From positions 10,428 through 74,427 of the forward strand of contig MFKV01000028.1 of NCBI GenBank assembly GCA_001781105.1: a stretch of DNA of 64,000 bases, given 5' to 3'. The translations under genes and the position numbers were made by a program. Within the stretch, counting starts at the first letter, position 1. Each line of letters opens with the position of its first letter. The notes beneath the pieces are model-generated. The model had not been told where the DNA came from. It did not search any database and saw only the letters and a list, made by a program, of their open reading frames with translations. This document shows, one piece after another, positions 36,654 to 41,650 of the stretch. This stretch comes from Candidatus Kaiserbacteria bacterium RIFCSPHIGHO2_01_FULL_54_36. Lineage in GTDB: Bacteria; Patescibacteriota; Minisyncoccia; Phycocordibacterales; UBA2100.

Positions 36654-36740
36654 AGATTTTAAAGATTACTACTAATGAACAGATTGTACTCCGCCATACT
36701 ACAAGTTCAAGAATGTCGGGCAGTATATCAAATTCCGTTT

Positions 36741-37415
36741 CTATTGCCGCAAAACGAAGTTAATTATTTGCCATATCGGGCGAGCAATTTTTTCGATTGT
36801 AAGCGCAAAAGTCTCTGCAAAGTTAGGAACATTTGAGCTTGATTCTTCGACTTTTTCGCCTGTGGCTACAATAGCCTCTTGAATGAGAATACTGGTATTT
36901 GCCAGATTGTGAATTGTGGCATCGGGTATCGCATTTAATACGTCCGTTATGGGTACGATTCGTCCGACAGTAATATAAAAACTTCCCGTCCCGGTGAGGG
37001 TTGAAGTCTTTCTCAGTGGGTATTTATCGATATTTTCGATAAACCACGCTCGAGTTTGCCGCAAAGGCAAAATATACAACCTTTTTGTAGTTACAAAATA
37101 ATAATATAAATCATCTGCTTCACTATAGAGGAAACATCCGGGCGTTTGATGTTCTTCGTTACTAATCGTTTCAAAAAAGAAGTTTCCGGTCCGGTCATAT
37201 GTATCTCCTTTTACCTCGATAAGCCGTTCCATTCTTAATCCGTTGAGTTTGAATTTCCAAATCAGGTCTATATCTCTTTTTTGATATTCTATATTTTTCT
37301 CGACATTAAATATTTCTACCGTTTCAGCCATCGCTCTCATGTAACGGGTTACGGCAAAGACTGCATCATCAGCGATTGTAAACGAGTCAGCAATCTTATA
37401 CGTTCTAAGATCCAT
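36741..37415 (-). CDS. Hypothetical protein with PD-(D/E)XK nuclease-like motif, a candidate restriction endonuclease
   Basis: 224 aa in the low-GC island. RDIDLIWKF...ERLIEVKGD fits D-x(n)-E-x-K. Immediately downstream of the MTase and the 140-aa gene. Confidence 0.5.
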   Translation of the reverse strand: MDLRTYKIADSFTIADDAVFAVTRYMRAMAETVEIFNVEKNIEYQKRDIDLIWKFKLNGLRMERLIEVKGDTYDRTGNFFFETISNEEHQTPGCFLYSEADDLYYYFVTTKRLYILPLRQTRAWFIENIDKYPLRKTSTLTGTGSFYITVGRIVPITDVLNAIPDATIHNLANTSILIQEAIVATGEKVEESSSNVPNFAETFALTIEKIARPIWQIINFVLRQ

Positions 37416-37418
37416 GGA

Positions 37419-37841
37419 CTACAGTTCACCTTTATTTGCCAAGGCAACAAATCTTTCCAAAGTTACTATCTTTACTTTATCTGTATCTTTAAAAAATTTA
37501 TTCAGTCCACCAGCTATATAAAAATCTCTGAGCTTCCATCCATCACCGCCTAAAATGACATATGCCTTTGAATACACACCTTTGTTATCAATGAGTGCTT
37601 CGGCAAGACACATGACCTCAAAAGGAACTTTTTGTTCTGCCGTACCACTCGTTTGTTGCCATTTGGATGAGATGAGTATTTTTTCTCCGCCTTTTTCTGC
37701 AATAGCATCGACCATATGGCGGCCTTTTCCGCCAAGTCGTATGCCGATATGCATTTGCTTTGTGTAGTCATAGCCGCCTCTTTTTAAAGCAGGTAGCACC
37801 ATATTTTCCAAAACTCCTCCGGTATTAGTATTTCGCGACAT
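37419..37841 (-). CDS. Hypothetical 140-aa protein in the R-M-like island (possible second nuclease or accessory subunit)
   Basis: Overlaps the MTase stop by 17 nt. Contains VDAIAEKGGEKILISSKWQQTSGTAEQK (a D...E-Q-K arrangement). No family recognised. Confidence 0.5.
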   Translation of the reverse strand: MSRNTNTGGVLENMVLPALKRGGYDYTKQMHIGIRLGGKGRHMVDAIAEKGGEKILISSKWQQTSGTAEQKVPFEVMCLAEALIDNKGVYSKAYVILGGDGWKLRDFYIAGGLNKFFKDTDKVKIVTLERFVALANKGEL

Positions 37842-38673
37842 TAACCAGATCCTTATACCTTTTCACAGAAAGATCAAGGTAGTTCTTTTCAAGGTCGATT
37901 CCGATAAACTTCCTACCGTGCGCTGCAGCTGCTAACCCCGTTGTTGAGCTGCCGGCAAACGGGTCGAGAACAATATCGTCTTTTCTTGTACTAGCGAGGA
38001 CAATTCGTCTTAAAAGCTCCAGGGGTTTCTGGGTCGGATGTTTTCCAAATTTCTTCTCTCCAGGTTTAGGGGTTCCAATGGACCACACGGAGCGCATTTG
38101 CAGACCTGGTTTCTTTAGAAAATCTCTGCCCCAATCTCCCGCTTTCATCAGATCATAATCGAAATGATGCTTTGCTTTCTTTTCCTTTCTCGCCCAAATC
38201 AGAGTCTCATGACTCGCCGTAAAGAATCGGCAGCTCAAATTTGGCGACGCATTCGGCTTGAACCACGAGATGTCATTAAGGATGTGGTAGTTGAGCGATT
38301 GCAGGGCGTGTCCGCATTGGTAAATGGAATGATACGTTCCGCTTACCCAGAGCGTTCCGTGCGGTTTGAGGACTCGTCTGCAGGCTTCGAGCCATCGGTA
38401 GTGAAAGTCATAATCGTCCTCAAACCCCTTACTCTTGTCCCAATCTCCCTTATTCACACTTACCATCTTTCCTGCGTGTACCGAGAAGCCACCATTCGAA
38501 AGATTGTACGGCGGATCCGCAAAAATCATGTCGATAGAATTTTCAGGAAGCGAACTGAGCAAATCTATCGAGTCGGCATTGTAGAGAACAAAGTTGTCCT
38601 GTTTGAAATAGGGCTTGAACTCGACAGACGCGAGGATTTTCTGTCTTGGTTTCTGAAAGGTTACGAGCGCCAT
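37825..38673 (-). CDS. Beta-class amino DNA methyltransferase (N6-adenine or N4-cytosine; DPPY motif IV precedes motif I FAGSSTTG)
   Basis: IFADPPYN and LDPFAGSSTTGLAA. Start set at MALVTF (38673), which is preceded by TATAAT-N7-ATG. The track start at 38706 lies inside that promoter. Confidence 0.85.
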   Translation of the reverse strand: MALVTFQKPRQKILASVEFKPYFKQDNFVLYNADSIDLLSSLPENSIDMIFADPPYNLSNGGFSVHAGKMVSVNKGDWDKSKGFEDDYDFHYRWLEACRRVLKPHGTLWVSGTYHSIYQCGHALQSLNYHILNDISWFKPNASPNLSCRFFTASHETLIWARKEKKAKHHFDYDLMKAGDWGRDFLKKPGLQMRSVWSIGTPKPGEKKFGKHPTQKPLELLRRIVLASTRKDDIVLDPFAGSSTTGLAAAAHGRKFIGIDLEKNYLDLSVKRYKDLVNVAKY

Positions 38674-38813
38674 GTGGATTATTATACCCCACGCGCGGTT
38701 GCTCATTTTGGGGAATCGGGGCCGTATTGCGGGGGTGGAGTGCGGGTGCCATAGTTGGGGTCGAAACTTAACCCAGCTCTTTGAGGTGGAAAGAGCTCTA
38801 CTTGGAGGCTACA

Positions 38814-39530
38814 ATGCGCACTTTGCTTGGCGCAGCCCTCTGCGCCTTTATCCTCGCCTTCTCTACGGTCGCCGCCTCGGCGCAGCGCAAGGAGGAGGTC
38901 GACCTTCTCCTCGTCCTCGCGGCCGATGTGTCGGGCAGCGTCGATCCGGATGAATTCGCGCTCCAGCGCCGCGGACACGCGGAGGCACTGCTTCACCCGC
39001 GCGTTCAGAAAGCGATTACCTCGGGCATGCTCGGAAAGATCGCCGTCACCTACATCGAGTGGTCCGGCGATTACCAGCAGACGGTCATCGTCGACTGGAC
39101 GATCATCGATGGCCTCGCTTCAGCGCAACACTTCGGCGCTCAGATGGTGGAAGTTGAGCGACCGCGCGGCAGGAGCACCGCCATCGGCGCAGCTATCGAC
39201 TTTTCTGTCAAACGACTCGAGGCGGCGCCGTATCACGCACACCGCCGGACAATCGACATCTCCGCCGACGGCACGAACACATCTTCGAATCTCGAGAAGG
39301 CGCGGAGTGAGGCGGTTGCGAAAGGGATCACGATCAACGTCCTCGCGATCCTCAGCGTGCTTCCTTCGCCGAGCTTCCCCTGGCACACGCATCCTGTTGG
39401 CGGACTCGAGAATTACTTCCGCAGTCATGTGATCGGCGGGCCGGGGTCGTTCGTCGTCGTCGCCGAAGAACACAGAAGCTTCGGCGAAGCGATCGTCAAG
39501 AAACTCATCGCCGAGATCGCGATGCGGTGA
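38814..39530 (+). CDS. Secreted DUF1194-like von Willebrand factor A-fold protein
   Basis: Signal peptide MRTLLGAALCAFILAFSTVAASA, then LLLVLAADVSGSVD (DxSxS MIDAS-like). Locally higher GC. Confidence 0.7.
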   Translation: MRTLLGAALCAFILAFSTVAASAQRKEEVDLLLVLAADVSGSVDPDEFALQRRGHAEALLHPRVQKAITSGMLGKIAVTYIEWSGDYQQTVIVDWTIIDGLASAQHFGAQMVEVERPRGRSTAIGAAIDFSVKRLEAAPYHAHRRTIDISADGTNTSSNLEKARSEAVAKGITINVLAILSVLPSPSFPWHTHPVGGLENYFRSHVIGGPGSFVVVAEEHRSFGEAIVKKLIAEIAMR

Positions 39531-39558
39531 GCACCGTATCGAAAATGCGAGAAGGCCC

Positions 39559-39595
39559 GGCGCAATGCGCACGGGCCTTCTATCTTTTCTGCTCT
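39559..39595 (+). terminator. Rho-independent terminator
   Basis: GAGAAGGCCCGGCGCAATGCGCACGGGCCTTCTATCTTTTCTG. Confidence 0.65.
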
Positions 39596-39774
39596 ATGAG
39601 GTGGAGCTGTTTTCGGAAGGTTTTGTGATGGGGAGTAGCGCGCTCCACATACCTATTCAAGTATTTTGCAAAACACTAGAATAGATCTCATCCCACAAAT
39701 CTTCATTTTGAACGAATTGACCTACGTACGATGCCGTGGCATTATATCGGCCGGCCCAAACCAGGAGGTACCCC

Positions 39775-40428: not shown

Positions 40429-41007
40429 TTAGCCTTGGGATTCGGTGGCGGGGTTGAGGGAATGGCGCTTGCCGGCAAGCGCGGAGGCCAGGATCTGCTT
40501 TACTCGCTTCTCCCGGGTTGCGGGTTGTTTTCCGCGAAGGATCCATCGATAAAGCATCCGTTTTTGCGAGGGTGGGTGGGATTCAAATGCTTGCTTTGCC
40601 TTCGCGCTCTTTGCGAGCGCCTTTTCGAGCTCGATTGGCATGTCGGGATTCTTCGGGATTCCGTGATCGTGTATGGGCTTTGCCTTACCGAGTTTGTAAA
40701 ATCGCATCCCCTCAGGGCTCATCCTCCCCTCTTTGATAAGCTTCTTTGCATAAGAAATAGTATTGTCGCTCCACTTGCTCTTCTCATTGCGCCGCGAGAA
40801 ATGCCGCAAGAAAGTATCTTCGTCAAGGCGTTTGATGATCGTGTCTATCCAGCCATAGCAGATCGCCTCTTCGATAAGCTCGCGATGCGTGGGGAAAGGC
40901 TTCCCCGTGTGTTTCTTGTGCACAACGACAGACATCTTTGTTTCCTTCTTATGATTCCTCTTCAGCCACTTCCTAAAGTCCTTCGCGCTGAATACAACAA
41001 TCTGCAT
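40429..41007 (-). CDS. YdeI/OmpD-associated (PF13376-like) family protein
   Basis: ...FRKWLKRNHKKE...ELIEEAICYGWIDTIIKRLDEDTF... Confidence 0.65.
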   Translation of the reverse strand: MQIVVFSAKDFRKWLKRNHKKETKMSVVVHKKHTGKPFPTHRELIEEAICYGWIDTIIKRLDEDTFLRHFSRRNEKSKWSDNTISYAKKLIKEGRMSPEGMRFYKLGKAKPIHDHGIPKNPDMPIELEKALAKSAKAKQAFESHPPSQKRMLYRWILRGKQPATREKRVKQILASALAGKRHSLNPATESQG

Positions 41008-41024
41008 AATCAATTTACATCCCG

Positions 41025-41297
41025 CTATTGCAGTCTTTTGCAAAACACTAGTATAGATTCTGCGCGCGGTGTCAGTTTGTGACGGACAGCGCTTCCCTGG
41101 TTCCGTTTAAAAACGAGGCCGGCGATTGCCAGTTTGCGTACGTGATCCGAAGCATTTTCATATCCTATTTTTAGACGCTGTGAAATATCTTCGACCGACA
41201 GTTCAGGTTCTCGTTTTAACAAATCGAGGATTTGCAGACGCCGATGATTCGCAAATCCTTTGACTATTCGTTCCAGCTGTCTGTATGTAGCTGCCAT
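41025..41297 (-). CDS. ArsR-family HTH transcriptional regulator (about 90 aa)
   Basis: FANHRRLQILDLL...SVEDISQRLKIGYENASDHVRKLAIAGLV. Start at MAATYRQ; the track start is a TTG inside a repeated motif. Confidence 0.7.
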   Translation of the reverse strand: MAATYRQLERIVKGFANHRRLQILDLLKREPELSVEDISQRLKIGYENASDHVRKLAIAGLVFKRNQGSAVRHKLTPRAESILVFCKRLQ

Positions 41298-41353
41298 AGA
41301 TCGATTGTACTCTATTGCAGTCTTTTGCAAAACACTAGCATAGGAATAAAGAT

Positions 41354-41650
41354 CTAGATGGTGAGTGTGAAAGCAATCGTATCGCCTTCGGCGAGGCCTT
41401 CCGCGCGGCGCGCGGCTGCTTTGAGCGGGAGGAGGTAGGTGCCCGAGCGTTTGTCGGGAAAGATAGATGTCTTCCAGCTTGTTTTACCGATAGTCACCTT
41501 CACACGAACCGAGCCGAATCCCCTGCGCACTCTCGTATGCTTTTCCTTTATCTCTTCCGAAAGCTTCTTATCGACATGGGCGAAATGCCAGACACCTTGC
41601 TCGCCCGGCCAGAGCCACACCTTTCCTTTCGCCTTGTACACCTGCGCCAT
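41354..41650 (-). CDS. DUF1905 domain protein
   Basis: ...VRRGFGSVRVKVTIGKTSWKTSIFPDKR... DUF1905 frequently partners with the YdeI-family domain. Confidence 0.7.
   Translation of the reverse strand: MAQVYKAKGKVWLWPGEQGVWHFAHVDKKLSEEIKEKHTRVRRGFGSVRVKVTIGKTSWKTSIFPDKRSGTYLLPLKAAARRAEGLAEGDTIAFTLTI

What the first reader, a model, noticed from the sequence alone, without database searches (positions are those of the whole stretch)
36660..38780. Low-GC island with a DPPY amino-methyltransferase and two small PD-(D/E)XK-like proteins, a candidate horizontally acquired variant R-M or defence module
This roughly 2.1-kb stretch is visibly AT-richer than its flanks (about 58% GC either side, with long A/T runs inside). 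It has three overlapping minus-strand genes: a beta-class N6A/N4C MTase (282 aa), a 140-aa protein overlapping its stop by 17 nt, and a 224-aa protein with a clear D-x(n)-E-V-K nuclease motif. A classical type II system needs only one endonuclease gene. The extra 140-aa partner (with its own D...EQK arrangement) suggests a heteromeric nuclease, a specificity or control subunit, or a fused defence add-on. No recognisable C-protein, integrase or flanking direct repeats were seen.
Basis: partly seen in the sequence, partly recalled or inferred. Interest (0 to 1): 0.7.

Follow-up and report, generated by a model that had tools for sequence, protein, structure and literature searches.

The report
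One methylase, two unrelated restriction nucleases
A foreign, AT-rich 2.1-kb island in a Candidatus Kaiserbacteria genome carries a DNA adenine methylase and two unrelated miniature cutting enzymes, each of which pairs on its own with the same kinds of methylase in other bacteria, so it looks like a restriction-modification system with two nucleases sharing one methylase rather than a two-subunit nuclease.

Summary
The island is 43.2% GC against 53.4±1.3% elsewhere (z −7.8). It has three intact minus-strand genes: a β-class DPPY methyltransferase, a 140-aa protein overlapping its stop by 17 nt, and a 224-aa protein.

The heteromeric or specificity-subunit interpretation is not supported. The 140-aa protein (PF20472) is the cognate nuclease. 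In 68 of 74 related loci with enough flank, a methyltransferase sits directly upstream, either Dam-like (D12 class) or β-class.

The 224-aa protein belongs to a separate PD-(D/E)XK family with no Pfam model. None of about 100 loci of that family holds a 140-aa homolog, and none of 68 loci of the 140-aa family holds a 224-aa homolog. Its two closest relatives and 13 of 40 non-cyanobacterial genomes link it to Dam-like or β-class methyltransferases, including one fusion. Some of those methyltransferases are 67–68% identical to partners of the 140-aa family.

Best reading: one methyltransferase protects the host from two unrelated endonucleases. The site is probably GATC. The Dam-like partners keep EcoDam's GATC-contact residues. 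The β-class methyltransferase is closer to one in a DpnII cassette (51%) than to CcrM (43%).

Specificity and activity are untested. This is a new variant of a known kind, of moderate interest.

The parts
37825..38706 (-). Beta-class N6-adenine DNA methyltransferase (M). The ORF is 293 aa from the first ATG at 38706. The likely start is Met12 at 38673 (282 aa). The site is probably GATC, as for DpnA-like enzymes; GANTC is the alternative.
   Evidence: PF01555 1.4e-58; PADLOC MTase_II 3e-98. It is 77-81% identical to the MTases that precede the closest 140-aa homologs. It is 50.8% identical to a beta MTase sitting next to a DpnII-family REase in Aeribacillus (L071) and 42.6% identical to CcrM. 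It scores far below the CcrM equivalog cut-off (244 vs 830 bits) and lacks CcrM's C-terminal domain.
37419..37841 (-). R140: a 140-aa minimal PD-(D/E)XK endonuclease of the PF20472 family. It is the cognate restriction endonuclease of this MTase lineage.
37825..37841 (-). 17-nt overlap between the 3' end of M and the 5' end of R140, suggesting translational coupling.
   Evidence: Read directly from the sequence. The same 14-17-nt overlap is seen in L006, L008 and L103. The genes abut without overlap in L011.
36741..37415 (-). R224: a 224-aa PD-(D/E)XK endonuclease of an unnamed family, acting as a second, add-on restriction-type nuclease. The core is residues 1-165. Residues 166-224 form a helical tail specific to this copy.
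37413..37421 (-). R140/R224 junction: TAG stop, one codon (TCC), then ATG, all in the same frame. A GGTGA Shine-Dalgarno-like motif lies 10 nt upstream of the ATG.
   Evidence: Read directly from the sequence. Homologs of both proteins are free-standing, so this is read as a coupled gene pair, not a broken fusion.
38707..38767 (-). Upstream edge of the island on the MTase side. It includes a TATAAT hexamer (38686-38681, inside the long ORF) 7 nt before the Met12 ATG.
   Evidence: GC rises from 0.48 to 0.59-0.63 here. One independent contig (L093) carries unrelated sequence beyond window position 38767.
36654..36740 (-). Downstream edge of the island: an AT-rich 87-nt spacer between R224 and the 161-aa host gene.
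   Evidence: No terminator above chance expectation.

Best explanation
The island is a horizontally acquired Type II restriction-modification (R-M) module with one methyltransferase and two unrelated, independently sufficient restriction endonucleases.

Shown:
- A beta-class N6-adenine MTase gene overlaps by 17 nt a 140-aa PD-(D/E)XK gene (R140).
- That two-gene arrangement is conserved across many lineages.
- R140 homologs are almost always preceded by an MTase, which is either Dam-like (D12 class) or beta-class.
- R140 sequences do not separate by partner type.
- The 224-aa protein (R224) belongs to a different PD-(D/E)XK family.
- R224's closest relatives, and a third of the non-cyanobacterial genome loci examined, are linked in classical R-M arrangements (tandem, convergent, divergent or fused) to the same D12 and beta-class MTase lineages.

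Inferred:
- The MTase methylates adenine in a short palindrome. This is most likely GATC (about 0.65), otherwise GANTC.
- R140, as a homodimer, cuts the unmethylated site in incoming DNA.
- R224 is co-transcribed, has its own ribosome-binding site, and is a second nuclease blocked by the same methylation. One MTase therefore licenses two nucleases.
- The likely benefit is redundancy against anti-restriction or loss of one nuclease, and stronger addiction to the MTase.
- R224 probably joined a pre-existing M-R140 cassette. The 3' end of such cassettes is a recurrent landing site for other nuclease genes.
For: 1. Foreign origin. GC is 43.2% against 53.4±1.3% (z -7.8). GC3 is 0.33-0.54 against 0.74-0.76 in the flanking genes.

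2. The M-R140 cassette.
- The closest relatives (R140 65-71% identical, M 77-81%) have M then R140 overlapping by 14-17 nt or abutting. What follows differs in each.
- Across 84 R140 sequences, 54 have a D12 MTase and 14 a beta MTase directly upstream, 10 lack flank and 6 are unclear.

3. Partner swapping without change in R140.
- Identity within and between partner groups is 0.66, 0.64 and 0.63.
- No alignment column discriminates the two groups.
- The beta-linked R140s are polyphyletic.

4. R224 is MTase-linked.
- L199 and L200, the closest homologs, have a D12 MTase adjacent.
- Six Pontibacter and two Adhaeribacter species keep a convergent D12 MTase.
- In L057 the MTase stop overlaps the R224 start by 4 nt.
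- L062 is a single 478-aa D12-MTase-R224 fusion.
- In Pontibacter mucosus, tandem D12 and beta MTases face R224, as in DpnII-type cassettes.

5. Same MTase lineage for both nucleases. The L003 and L024 D12 MTases next to R224 are 67-68% identical to R140 partners, whose own median pairwise identity is 62%.

6. Specificity.
- All 44 R140-partner and all 12 R224-partner D12 MTases keep EcoDam N120, L122, R124 and P134. K9 is kept wherever that N-terminal region is present; one partner sequence, L199, is cut off by the contig end.
- Position 119 is Y or F, and Y138 is kept in most of them. The residue roles come from PMC4417163.
- The D12 MTase of a true DpnII-family cassette (L071) has the same pattern.
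- The window's M is 50.8% identical to the beta MTase beside that DpnII-family REase. This lies inside the 51-81% range of R140's beta partners. CcrM, at 42.6%, lies outside it.

7. Solitary R224 genes. None of 40 cyanobacterial loci has a linked MTase, against 13 of 40 non-cyanobacterial loci. Almost all cyanobacteria carry the orphan GATC MTase DmtA (PMC4390886).

8. All three genes are intact. They retain every family-invariant residue and are 100% identical across strain contigs.
Against: - No biochemical or methylome data exist. Specificity rests on MTase similarity and on conserved contact residues.
- The contact-residue test had no negative control, because no D12 MTase of a different specificity was available.
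- The MTase's best named matches are CcrM-type (NCBIfam 244 bits, PDB 6PBD 199 bits), so GANTC is not excluded.
- About 85% of R224-family loci have no linked MTase. These include megaplasmid copies.
- A phage subfamily (about 37% identical) sits after the DNA polymerase gene in a replication and recombination module. This fits a structure-specific or homing-type nuclease.
- R224's nearest solved folds are a homing endonuclease, methyl-dependent BisI-family enzymes and Holliday-junction resolvases. No orthodox enzyme of known matching specificity is among them.
- The window shows no avoidance of GATC (observed/expected 1.09) or GANTC (0.92).
- The trio was found only in this one population, so joint selection on the three genes cannot be shown.
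Confidence: 0.6

Rival explanations
1. M plus R140 is a complete two-gene R-M system. R224 is a functionally unrelated passenger that landed next to it or was co-transferred. It could be a phage-derived structure-specific nuclease (resolvase-like), a free-standing homing-type nuclease, or a modification-dependent (Type IV) nuclease. Its activity would not depend on the island's methylase.
For: - Most R224 homologs are solitary, with no conserved neighbours.
- Phage homologs lie between the DNA polymerase gene and nucleotide kinase, UvsX-like recombinase and Cas4-like exonuclease genes.
- NERD-R224 fusions exist.
- The 3' flank of M-R140 cassettes holds many different genes, including GmrSD_N and VRR-NUC-like nucleases.
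Against: - R224 recurs with D12 and beta MTases in every classical R-M arrangement, including an M-R224 fusion and a 4-nt overlap.
- Some of those MTases belong to the same lineage as R140's partners.
- Solitary copies are enriched in a phylum that already methylates GATC.
- An enzyme dependent on m6A at the MTase's own site could not coexist with that MTase.
- R224 and R140 have almost the same GC and GC3 (0.39/0.37 and 0.40/0.33), with a 3-nt spacing.
Confidence: 0.25
2. R140 and R224 are two subunits of one heteromeric nuclease (Type IIT-like, as in Bpu10I, BbvCI or BslI), or one acts as a specificity or control subunit for the other.
For: - The spacing is tight (3 nt), the junction is in frame and the codon composition is shared.
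- R140 is only a bare catalytic core with no extra recognition domain.
- One natural fusion joins a distant PF20472 domain to an R224 domain (P0463).
- Pontibacter mucosus has a PD..EKK protein with a weak PF20472 match directly upstream of its R224 homolog.
Against: - There is no co-occurrence in 68 R140 loci or in about 100 R224 loci.
- Each family forms two-gene pairs with an MTase on its own.
- The N-terminal part of P0463 does not match the R140-subfamily profile and lacks its catalytic block.
- A tandem-R224 protein (P0406) points to homodimeric R224.
Confidence: 0.07
3. The architecture is as in the best explanation, but the recognition site is GANTC (CcrM/HinfI-type) or another site, not GATC.
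For: The best named matches of the MTase are CcrM: NCBIfam NF050803 at 243.7 bits and PDB 6PBD at 199 bits, 42.6% identity. From memory, both alpha- and beta-class MTases exist for GANTC as well as for GATC.
Against: - The MTase is closer to the beta MTase of a DpnII-family cassette (50.8%) than to CcrM.
- It lacks CcrM's C-terminal domain and scores far below the equivalog cut-off.
- The alternative D12 partners keep EcoDam's GATC-contact residues.
Confidence: 0.2
4. R140 is not a restriction enzyme. It is a repair-type nickase coupled to the methylase, by analogy with the overlapping Dcm-Vsr genes or with Dam-MutH.
For: The small size and the gene overlap with an MTase resemble dcm-vsr (from memory). 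The predicted chemistry, cutting at unmethylated Dam-type sites, is also what MutH does.
Against: - The cassette has a patchy, horizontally transferred, low-GC distribution.
- MTase class is swapped polyphyletically, as is typical of mobile R-M cassettes.
- There is no sequence match to the Vsr or MutH families.
Confidence: 0.06

Closest known systems
Orthodox Type II restriction-modification systems with a beta-class m6A methyltransferase, with the DpnII/LlaDCHI-type GATC cassettes as the nearest example
   Same: - Separate MTase and PD-(D/E)XK nuclease genes are tightly linked.
- The MTase is a DPPY beta-class enzyme, 51% identical to one that sits beside a DpnII-family REase.
- The nuclease families also pair with Dam-like alpha-class MTases, as DpnM does in DpnII cassettes.
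   Different: - No DpnII/MboI-family (PF04556) or Sau3AI/MutH-family nuclease is present.
- The nucleases are two unrelated, much smaller proteins (140 and 224 aa).
- The stoichiometry is inverted. DpnII cassettes have two MTases and one nuclease; this island has one MTase and two nucleases.
CcrM / M.HinfI family (GANTC) methyltransferases
   Same: This is the best named sequence match of the MTase: 42.6% identity over about 250 residues, with the same motif order.
   Different: - It lacks the C-terminal domain, matching profile positions 7-253 of 350.
- It scores 244 bits against the 830-bit equivalog cut-off.
- It is linked to nucleases, whereas CcrM is an orphan cell-cycle MTase (from memory).
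Pfam PF20472 (PDDEXK_11), an uncharacterised PD-(D/E)XK domain family
   Same: R140 matches the whole model above the gathering score.
   Different: In the data searched here the family carries only generic labels ('PD-(D/E)XK nuclease superfamily', 'hypothetical protein'), and no paper in the searched library mentions it. The evidence here assigns this subfamily a role as the nuclease of Dam-type R-M pairs.
Heterodimeric Type IIT enzymes (Bpu10I, BbvCI, BslI; R.BspD6I large and small subunits)
   Different: Subunits of such enzymes are co-inherited. R140 and R224 are not.
Small PD-(D/E)XK nucleases I-Ssp6803I (homing), BisI-family NhoI/Eco15I (methyl-dependent), PvuII and Hjc
   Different: - There is no detectable sequence similarity, even with a family profile.
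- R224 is not intron-encoded.
- It coexists with, and is linked to, m6A MTases.

Membership tests
Type II restriction-modification system | Adjacent, separate genes for a DNA methyltransferase and an endonuclease | tested here: met
   M overlaps R140 by 17 nt, and R224 follows 3 nt later. The M-R140 arrangement is conserved in relatives.
Type II restriction-modification system | Methyltransferase with a catalytic (D/N/S)PP(Y/F) motif and an AdoMet-binding FxGxG motif | tested here: met
   ADPPY at residues 63-67 and DPFAGSSTTG near the C-terminus; PF01555 1.4e-58.
Type II restriction-modification system | Endonuclease with a nuclease catalytic core | tested here: met
   R140: E12, D45, S58-x-K60, E69/E75 and a PD-(D/E)XK fold. 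R224: D50, E67-x-K69 and a PD-(D/E)XK fold.
Type II restriction-modification system | Sequence-specific cleavage that is blocked by the cognate methylation | not testable with these tools
   This needs enzyme assays or a methylome. Only gene linkage to MTases supports it.
Beta-class N6A/N4C DNA methyltransferases (PF01555) | Pfam gathering score reached, with motif IV before motif I | tested here: met
   198.9 bits against a 26.7 cut-off; DPPY lies N-terminal of FxGxG.
CcrM (NCBIfam NF050803 equivalog, GANTC) | Equivalog score cut-off reached and full-length architecture including the C-terminal domain | tested here: not met
   243.7 bits against the 830 cut-off; matches profile positions 7-253 of 350 only.
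DpnII-type GATC cassette | A DpnII/MboI-family endonuclease (PF04556) together with GATC methyltransferase(s) | tested here: not met
   Neither nuclease matches PF04556. Only the MTase resembles the beta MTase of such a cassette (L071: 50.8% identity).
GATC (Dam-type) specificity | Methylation of adenine in GATC | tested here: inconclusive
   This evidence is indirect. The D12 partners of both nuclease families keep the EcoDam contact residues. The window's own MTase is beta-class and is similarly related to GATC-linked enzymes (51%) and to the GANTC enzyme CcrM (43%).
PF20472 PDDEXK_11 | Pfam gathering score over the full domain | tested here: met
   R140: 53.6 bits against 23.7, matching profile positions 3-144 of 145.
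Heteromeric (Type IIT) restriction endonuclease | Two different subunit genes co-conserved across systems | tested here: not met
   0 of 68 R140 loci contain R224. 0 of about 100 R224 loci contain R140.
Heteromeric (Type IIT) restriction endonuclease | Physical complex of the two subunits needed for cleavage | not testable with these tools
BisI-family / Type IV modification-dependent endonucleases | Sequence membership of the family | tested here: not met
PD-(D/E)XK homing endonuclease (I-Ssp6803I type) | Encoded within an intron or intein, or sporadically inserted between conserved genes | tested here: inconclusive
   R224 is not in an intron. The family is syntenic and apparently vertically inherited in Hymenobacteraceae and sits at a fixed position in related phage contigs. 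Across phyla its context is variable.

The most novel reading that the evidence does not exclude
R140 and R224 would be two previously unrecognised families of very small, methylation-sensitive GATC endonucleases that exchange freely between Dam-like and DpnA-like methylases.

R140, at 140 aa, would be shorter than PvuII (157 aa).

R224 occurs without a linked methylase in many cyanobacteria. There it would be an unlinked nuclease partner, either restriction-type or MutH-like, of the near-universal and supposedly orphan GATC methylase DmtA.

The Kaiserbacteria island would then be a natural example of stacking two non-homologous isoschizomers on one methylase.
Probability: 0.3. Interest if true: 0.7.

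Novelty: new variant of a known kind. Interest (0 to 1): 0.5.

Why it matters
If confirmed, it would add two compact nuclease families to the Type II repertoire. One has only a function-less Pfam entry and the other has none.

It would show that unrelated nucleases and unrelated methylase classes are interchangeable parts around one methylation mark. It would also document a one-methylase, two-nuclease architecture in a reduced CPR genome. That architecture bears on how defence islands grow and how restriction systems resist anti-restriction.

The link between R224 and Dam-type methylases suggests a direct test: do the "orphan" GATC methylases of cyanobacteria have an unlinked nuclease partner?

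The enzymes themselves could be useful small reagents.

Tried and rejected
1. Broken fusion or stop-codon readthrough. The TAG-TCC-ATG junction is in frame, but homologs of both proteins are free-standing (138-141 aa and 160-190 aa). R224 also has its own SD-like motif. Rejected.

2. Palindrome avoidance as a proxy for specificity. No 4-, 5- or 6-bp palindrome, including GATC (observed/expected 1.09) and GANTC (0.92), is clearly depleted in the 64 kb. Uninformative.

3. Island-less close relatives.
- Every long contig carrying the flanking 161-aa gene has the trio with zero differences.
- Homologs of the other flank (DUF1194) drop from 96% to 59% identity, so no near relative is available.
- The test could not be done. 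One contig (L093) does diverge exactly at 38767.

4. Sequence searches of R140 and R224, and of their family profiles, against PDB sequences gave nothing significant.

5. PADLOC, NCBIfam and PHROGs gave no informative hit for R140 or R224. R140 matches phrog_6124, which has unknown function.

6. Plasmid and viral collections.
- R140 is absent from both.
- R224 homologs on plasmids are annotated only as hypothetical proteins.

7. Literature searches for PF20472/PDDEXK_11 and for CPR methylation motifs found nothing useful.

8. Flanking direct or inverted repeats, tRNA targets, promoters and terminators: nothing above chance.

9. Profile-profile comparison found no relationship among R140, R224 and the recurrent third-gene family X218.

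10. My first neighbour clustering of R224 loci missed the D12 MTases. This was corrected by directed searches.

11. The afdb50 fold library was unavailable.
Full report
**Observation**

The stretch 36660-38780 is 43.2% GC. Non-overlapping 2.1-kb windows of the same 64 kb average 53.4% (sd 1.3, minimum 50.5), so z is -7.8 and this is the lowest stretch in the window. It holds three minus-strand ORFs:
- 37825..38706: a methyltransferase, 293 aa from the first ATG or 282 aa from Met12, where homologs begin to align.
- 37419..37841: 140 aa, called R140 here.
- 36741..37415: 224 aa, called R224 here.

The MTase stop and the R140 start overlap by 17 nt. The TAG stop of R140, one codon and the ATG of R224 are in one frame. 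An exact match to R224 identifies the source as Candidatus Kaiserbacteria bacterium RIFCSPHIGHO2_01_FULL_54_3x, where it is annotated as a hypothetical protein. No repeats, tRNA, integrase or controller gene mark the edges.

**The three proteins**

The MTase is a beta-class DPPY enzyme: PF01555 at 1.4e-58 and PADLOC Type II MTase at 3e-98. Its best named relative is CcrM. However, it scores 244 bits against an 830-bit equivalog cut-off and lacks CcrM's C-terminal domain.

R140 matches Pfam PF20472 (PDDEXK_11) over its full length.
- The 32-sequence family alignment is very conserved (69% mean column identity). Invariant residues there are E12, D45, S58-x-K60, Q62, Q63, E69, K71 and E75.
- Across 84 sequences, all of these except E75 remain invariant.
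- The AF2 model (pLDDT 90.5) is a bare alpha-beta-beta-beta-alpha-beta nuclease core.
- S-x-K occupies the strand where (D/E)xK normally sits, and conserved glutamates lie in the next helix. From memory, this recalls the Cfr10I/NgoMIV active-site variant.

R224 matches no Pfam, NCBIfam, PADLOC or PHROG family.
- It has an invariant D50...E67-x-K69 motif, plus D71 and E82, in 41 homologs.
- Its AF2 model has pLDDT 90.1.
- Homologs are 160-190 aa. The last 60 residues, predicted as two helices, are specific to this copy.

The two small proteins are not detectably related to each other.

**Which nuclease belongs to the methylase**

The closest R140 relatives (65-71% identical) sit directly after an MTase that is 77-81% identical to the one here. 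The two genes overlap by 14-17 nt or abut. What follows differs in each case: an M23 peptidase, a 123-aa ORF, or a 178-aa protein with a PD...EVK motif.

I fetched 80 further metagenome loci with R140 at 59-70% identity. Together with the window and three relatives found earlier (L006, L008, L011), that makes 84 R140 sequences. In these:
- 54 have a D12-class (Dam-like, PF02086) MTase directly upstream.
- 14 have a beta-class MTase directly upstream.
- 10 lack enough flank and 6 are unclear.
- So 68 of the 74 loci with enough flank have an MTase directly upstream.

R140 sequences do not sort by partner class. Mean identity is 0.66 and 0.64 within the two groups and 0.63 between them. No alignment column discriminates the groups, and the beta-linked R140s fall in several separate clades. 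R140 is therefore one nuclease family served by two unrelated MTase classes. The simplest reading is that both classes make the same protective mark. None of the 68 loci with downstream sequence contains an R224 homolog.

**What R224 is**

The family is large: 2859 cluster representatives at E up to 0.001, and 309 GTDB species. The species are mostly cyanobacteria, Chloroflexota and Hymenobacteraceae.

My first neighbour clustering found nothing conserved. Directed searches changed that picture:
- The two closest homologs (50% and 46% identical) each have a D12 MTase next to them.
- Six Pontibacter and two Adhaeribacter species keep a convergent D12 MTase at a syntenic locus.
- In L057 the MTase and R224 genes overlap by 4 nt.
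- L062 encodes a single 478-aa D12-MTase-R224 fusion.
- In L003 and L024 the adjacent D12 MTase is 67-68% identical to R140 partners, whose own median pairwise identity is 62%.
- In Aeribacillus (L071) the R224 homolog abuts a DpnII-family cassette. The cassette comprises a PF04556 REase (3e-88), a beta MTase 50.8% identical to the one here, and a D12 MTase 2 kb away.
- In Pontibacter mucosus, tandem D12 and beta MTases face R224. A further small protein with a PD..EKK motif lies upstream. The sister species lacks that protein and most of the beta MTase.

In the genome set, 13 of 40 non-cyanobacterial loci have a linked MTase, against none of 40 cyanobacterial loci. Almost all cyanobacteria carry the orphan GATC MTase DmtA (PMC4390886). 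That would let a GATC-type, methylation-sensitive nuclease exist without a linked MTase.

No R224 locus contains an R140 homolog.

**Specificity**

All 44 R140-partner and all 12 R224-partner D12 MTases keep EcoDam N120, L122, R124 and P134.
- K9 is kept wherever that N-terminal region is present; one partner sequence (L199) is cut off by the contig end.
- Position 119 is Y or F, and Y138 is kept in most.
- These residues contact GATC in EcoDam (PMC4417163).
- The D12 MTase of the DpnII-family cassette in L071 shows the same pattern.

Beta-class partners of R140 range from 81% down to 51% identity to the window's MTase. The DpnII-linked beta MTase (50.8%, 286 bits) falls inside that range and CcrM (42.6%, 197 bits) falls outside it.

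I therefore favour GATC at about 0.65, with GANTC as the alternative. No D12 MTase of a different specificity was available as a negative control. The window shows no site avoidance.

**Mechanism proposed**

Shown:
- The gene order and the gene overlaps.
- Catalytic motifs intact in all three genes, and zero sequence differences across strain contigs.
- The linkage statistics above.

Inferred:
- The MTase methylates host sites.
- R140, translationally coupled to the MTase, cuts unmethylated incoming DNA.
- R224 is co-transcribed, with a GGTGA motif 10 nt upstream of its ATG. It is a second nuclease held in check by the same methylation.

R140 and R224 have almost the same composition (GC 0.40 and 0.39; GC3 0.33 and 0.37), while the MTase is at 0.47 and 0.54.

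The 3' end of M-R140 cassettes often carries a tightly coupled third gene from varied families:
- X218, a family of unknown function, in 11 loci.
- A GmrSD_N protein.
- A VRR-NUC-like protein.
- A 395-aa protein with a C-terminal D...EVK motif.

R224 is best seen as one such accretion, and one that happens to fit the same methylation.

**Rivals**

- R224 as an unrelated passenger, either phage-derived resolvase-like or homing-type, or Type IV. About 85% of homologs are solitary. A phage subfamily sits after the DNA polymerase gene in a replication and recombination module. The nearest folds are of these kinds. I give this 0.25.
- A heteromeric R140/R224 enzyme. The only support is the tight spacing and one fusion of a distant PF20472 domain to R224. 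That domain does not match the R140 subfamily. I give this 0.07.
- R140 as a Vsr/MutH-like repair nickase. I give this about 0.06.

**Comparison and novelty**

The island works like an orthodox Type II R-M system of the Dam/DpnII kind. It is not a member of the DpnII, CcrM or Type IIT families, because defining features of each were tested and not met. The one-MTase, two-nuclease layout was found only in this population.

Both nuclease families are uncharacterised. Neither received a functional annotation in any library or collection searched, and no paper in the searched library mentions PF20472. At 140 aa, R140 would be shorter than PvuII, whose PDB chain has 157 residues.

I rate this a new variant of a known kind, with interest 0.5. 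The more novel reading is that these are two new GATC endonuclease families and that R224 is an unlinked partner of cyanobacterial DmtA. I give that reading a probability of about 0.3.

Noticed in passing
window 39269-39604 (DUF1194 gene 38781..39530 and just beyond): All differences between this window and two strain contigs fall in one stretch of about 340 nt at the 3' end of the DUF1194 gene and just after it. There are 23 mismatches over 12.5 kb (L092) and 31 over 5.6 kb (L094), and none in the island or other genes. This looks like a recombination tract or a hypervariable segment. The gene is also unusually GC-rich (61.6%), and its next-best homologs are only 57-59% identical.
   Followed up: partly
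window 38767/38768; L093:1-139: An independent assembly (ERZ27254767, a 30.8-kb contig) is identical to the window up to 38767. It then continues for 139 nt with sequence not found anywhere in the 64-kb window. This is either a strain-level structural variant at the methylase-side edge of the island or an assembly chimera.
   Followed up: partly
window 38681-38686 (minus strand): A perfect TATAAT hexamer lies 7 nt upstream of the Met12 ATG of the methyltransferase, with no good -35 element. This would fit a leaderless transcript starting at the likely true start codon. The promoter scan did not report it.
   Followed up: no
window 37803-37841: Public gene calls include a 127-aa version of R140 that starts at Met14 (P0121). 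Residues R3, T5, T7 and G8 are invariant across the family, so the 140-aa start is the real one.
   Followed up: yes
L122, L127, L134, L138, L142, L144, L170, L178 and others (downstream of R140): A protein family of about 220 aa with no Pfam match ('X218') directly follows D12-MTase-R140 pairs in 11 metagenome loci. The gap ranges from -4 to +115 nt. Conserved motifs include GYSIxHVxGRFR and DETTAVTRFIFP. Profile comparison shows no relationship to R140 or R224.
   Followed up: partly
L100:631-1383; L011:4430-4966; L108:860-2047: Other M-R140 cassettes carry different nuclease-type genes 3-16 nt downstream. These are a GmrSD_N (Type IV-like) protein, a 178-aa VRR-NUC-like protein with a PD...EVK motif, and a 395-aa protein with a C-terminal D...EVK motif. 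The 3' end of the cassette looks like an accretion site for nucleases.
   Followed up: partly
L183-L194 (IMG/VR contigs), e.g. L186:3459-3971: A subfamily about 37% identical to R224 is encoded at a fixed position in related viral contigs. It overlaps the end of a DNA polymerase gene. Nucleotide kinase, UvsX-like recombinase and Cas4-like exonuclease genes follow it.
   Followed up: partly
L034, L036, L046, L049, L065 (Oscillatoria/Laspinema); P0367; P0406; P0463 (L197:5001-6059): Domain fusions of the R224 family: NERD-R224 (427-431 aa), a tandem double R224 (349 aa), and a distant PF20472-like domain fused to R224 (352 aa) next to a Macro-domain gene.
   Followed up: partly
L023:3457-6274 vs L022: Pontibacter mucosus has a four-gene cluster: a protein of about 173 aa with a PD..EKK motif, an R224 homolog, a beta MTase and a D12 MTase. 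The closely related P. chinhatensis (flanks about 93% identical in DNA) lacks the first gene and most of the beta MTase. Its R224 gene is only 81% identical in DNA, which suggests recent remodelling of the locus.
   Followed up: partly
window 40600-41400: This is a second, milder GC dip (44.5-49.5%). It covers a 204-aa gene (DUF8412/OmdA family in the strain contig's annotation) and a small HTH (ArsR-like) gene. It may be another acquired segment.
   Followed up: no
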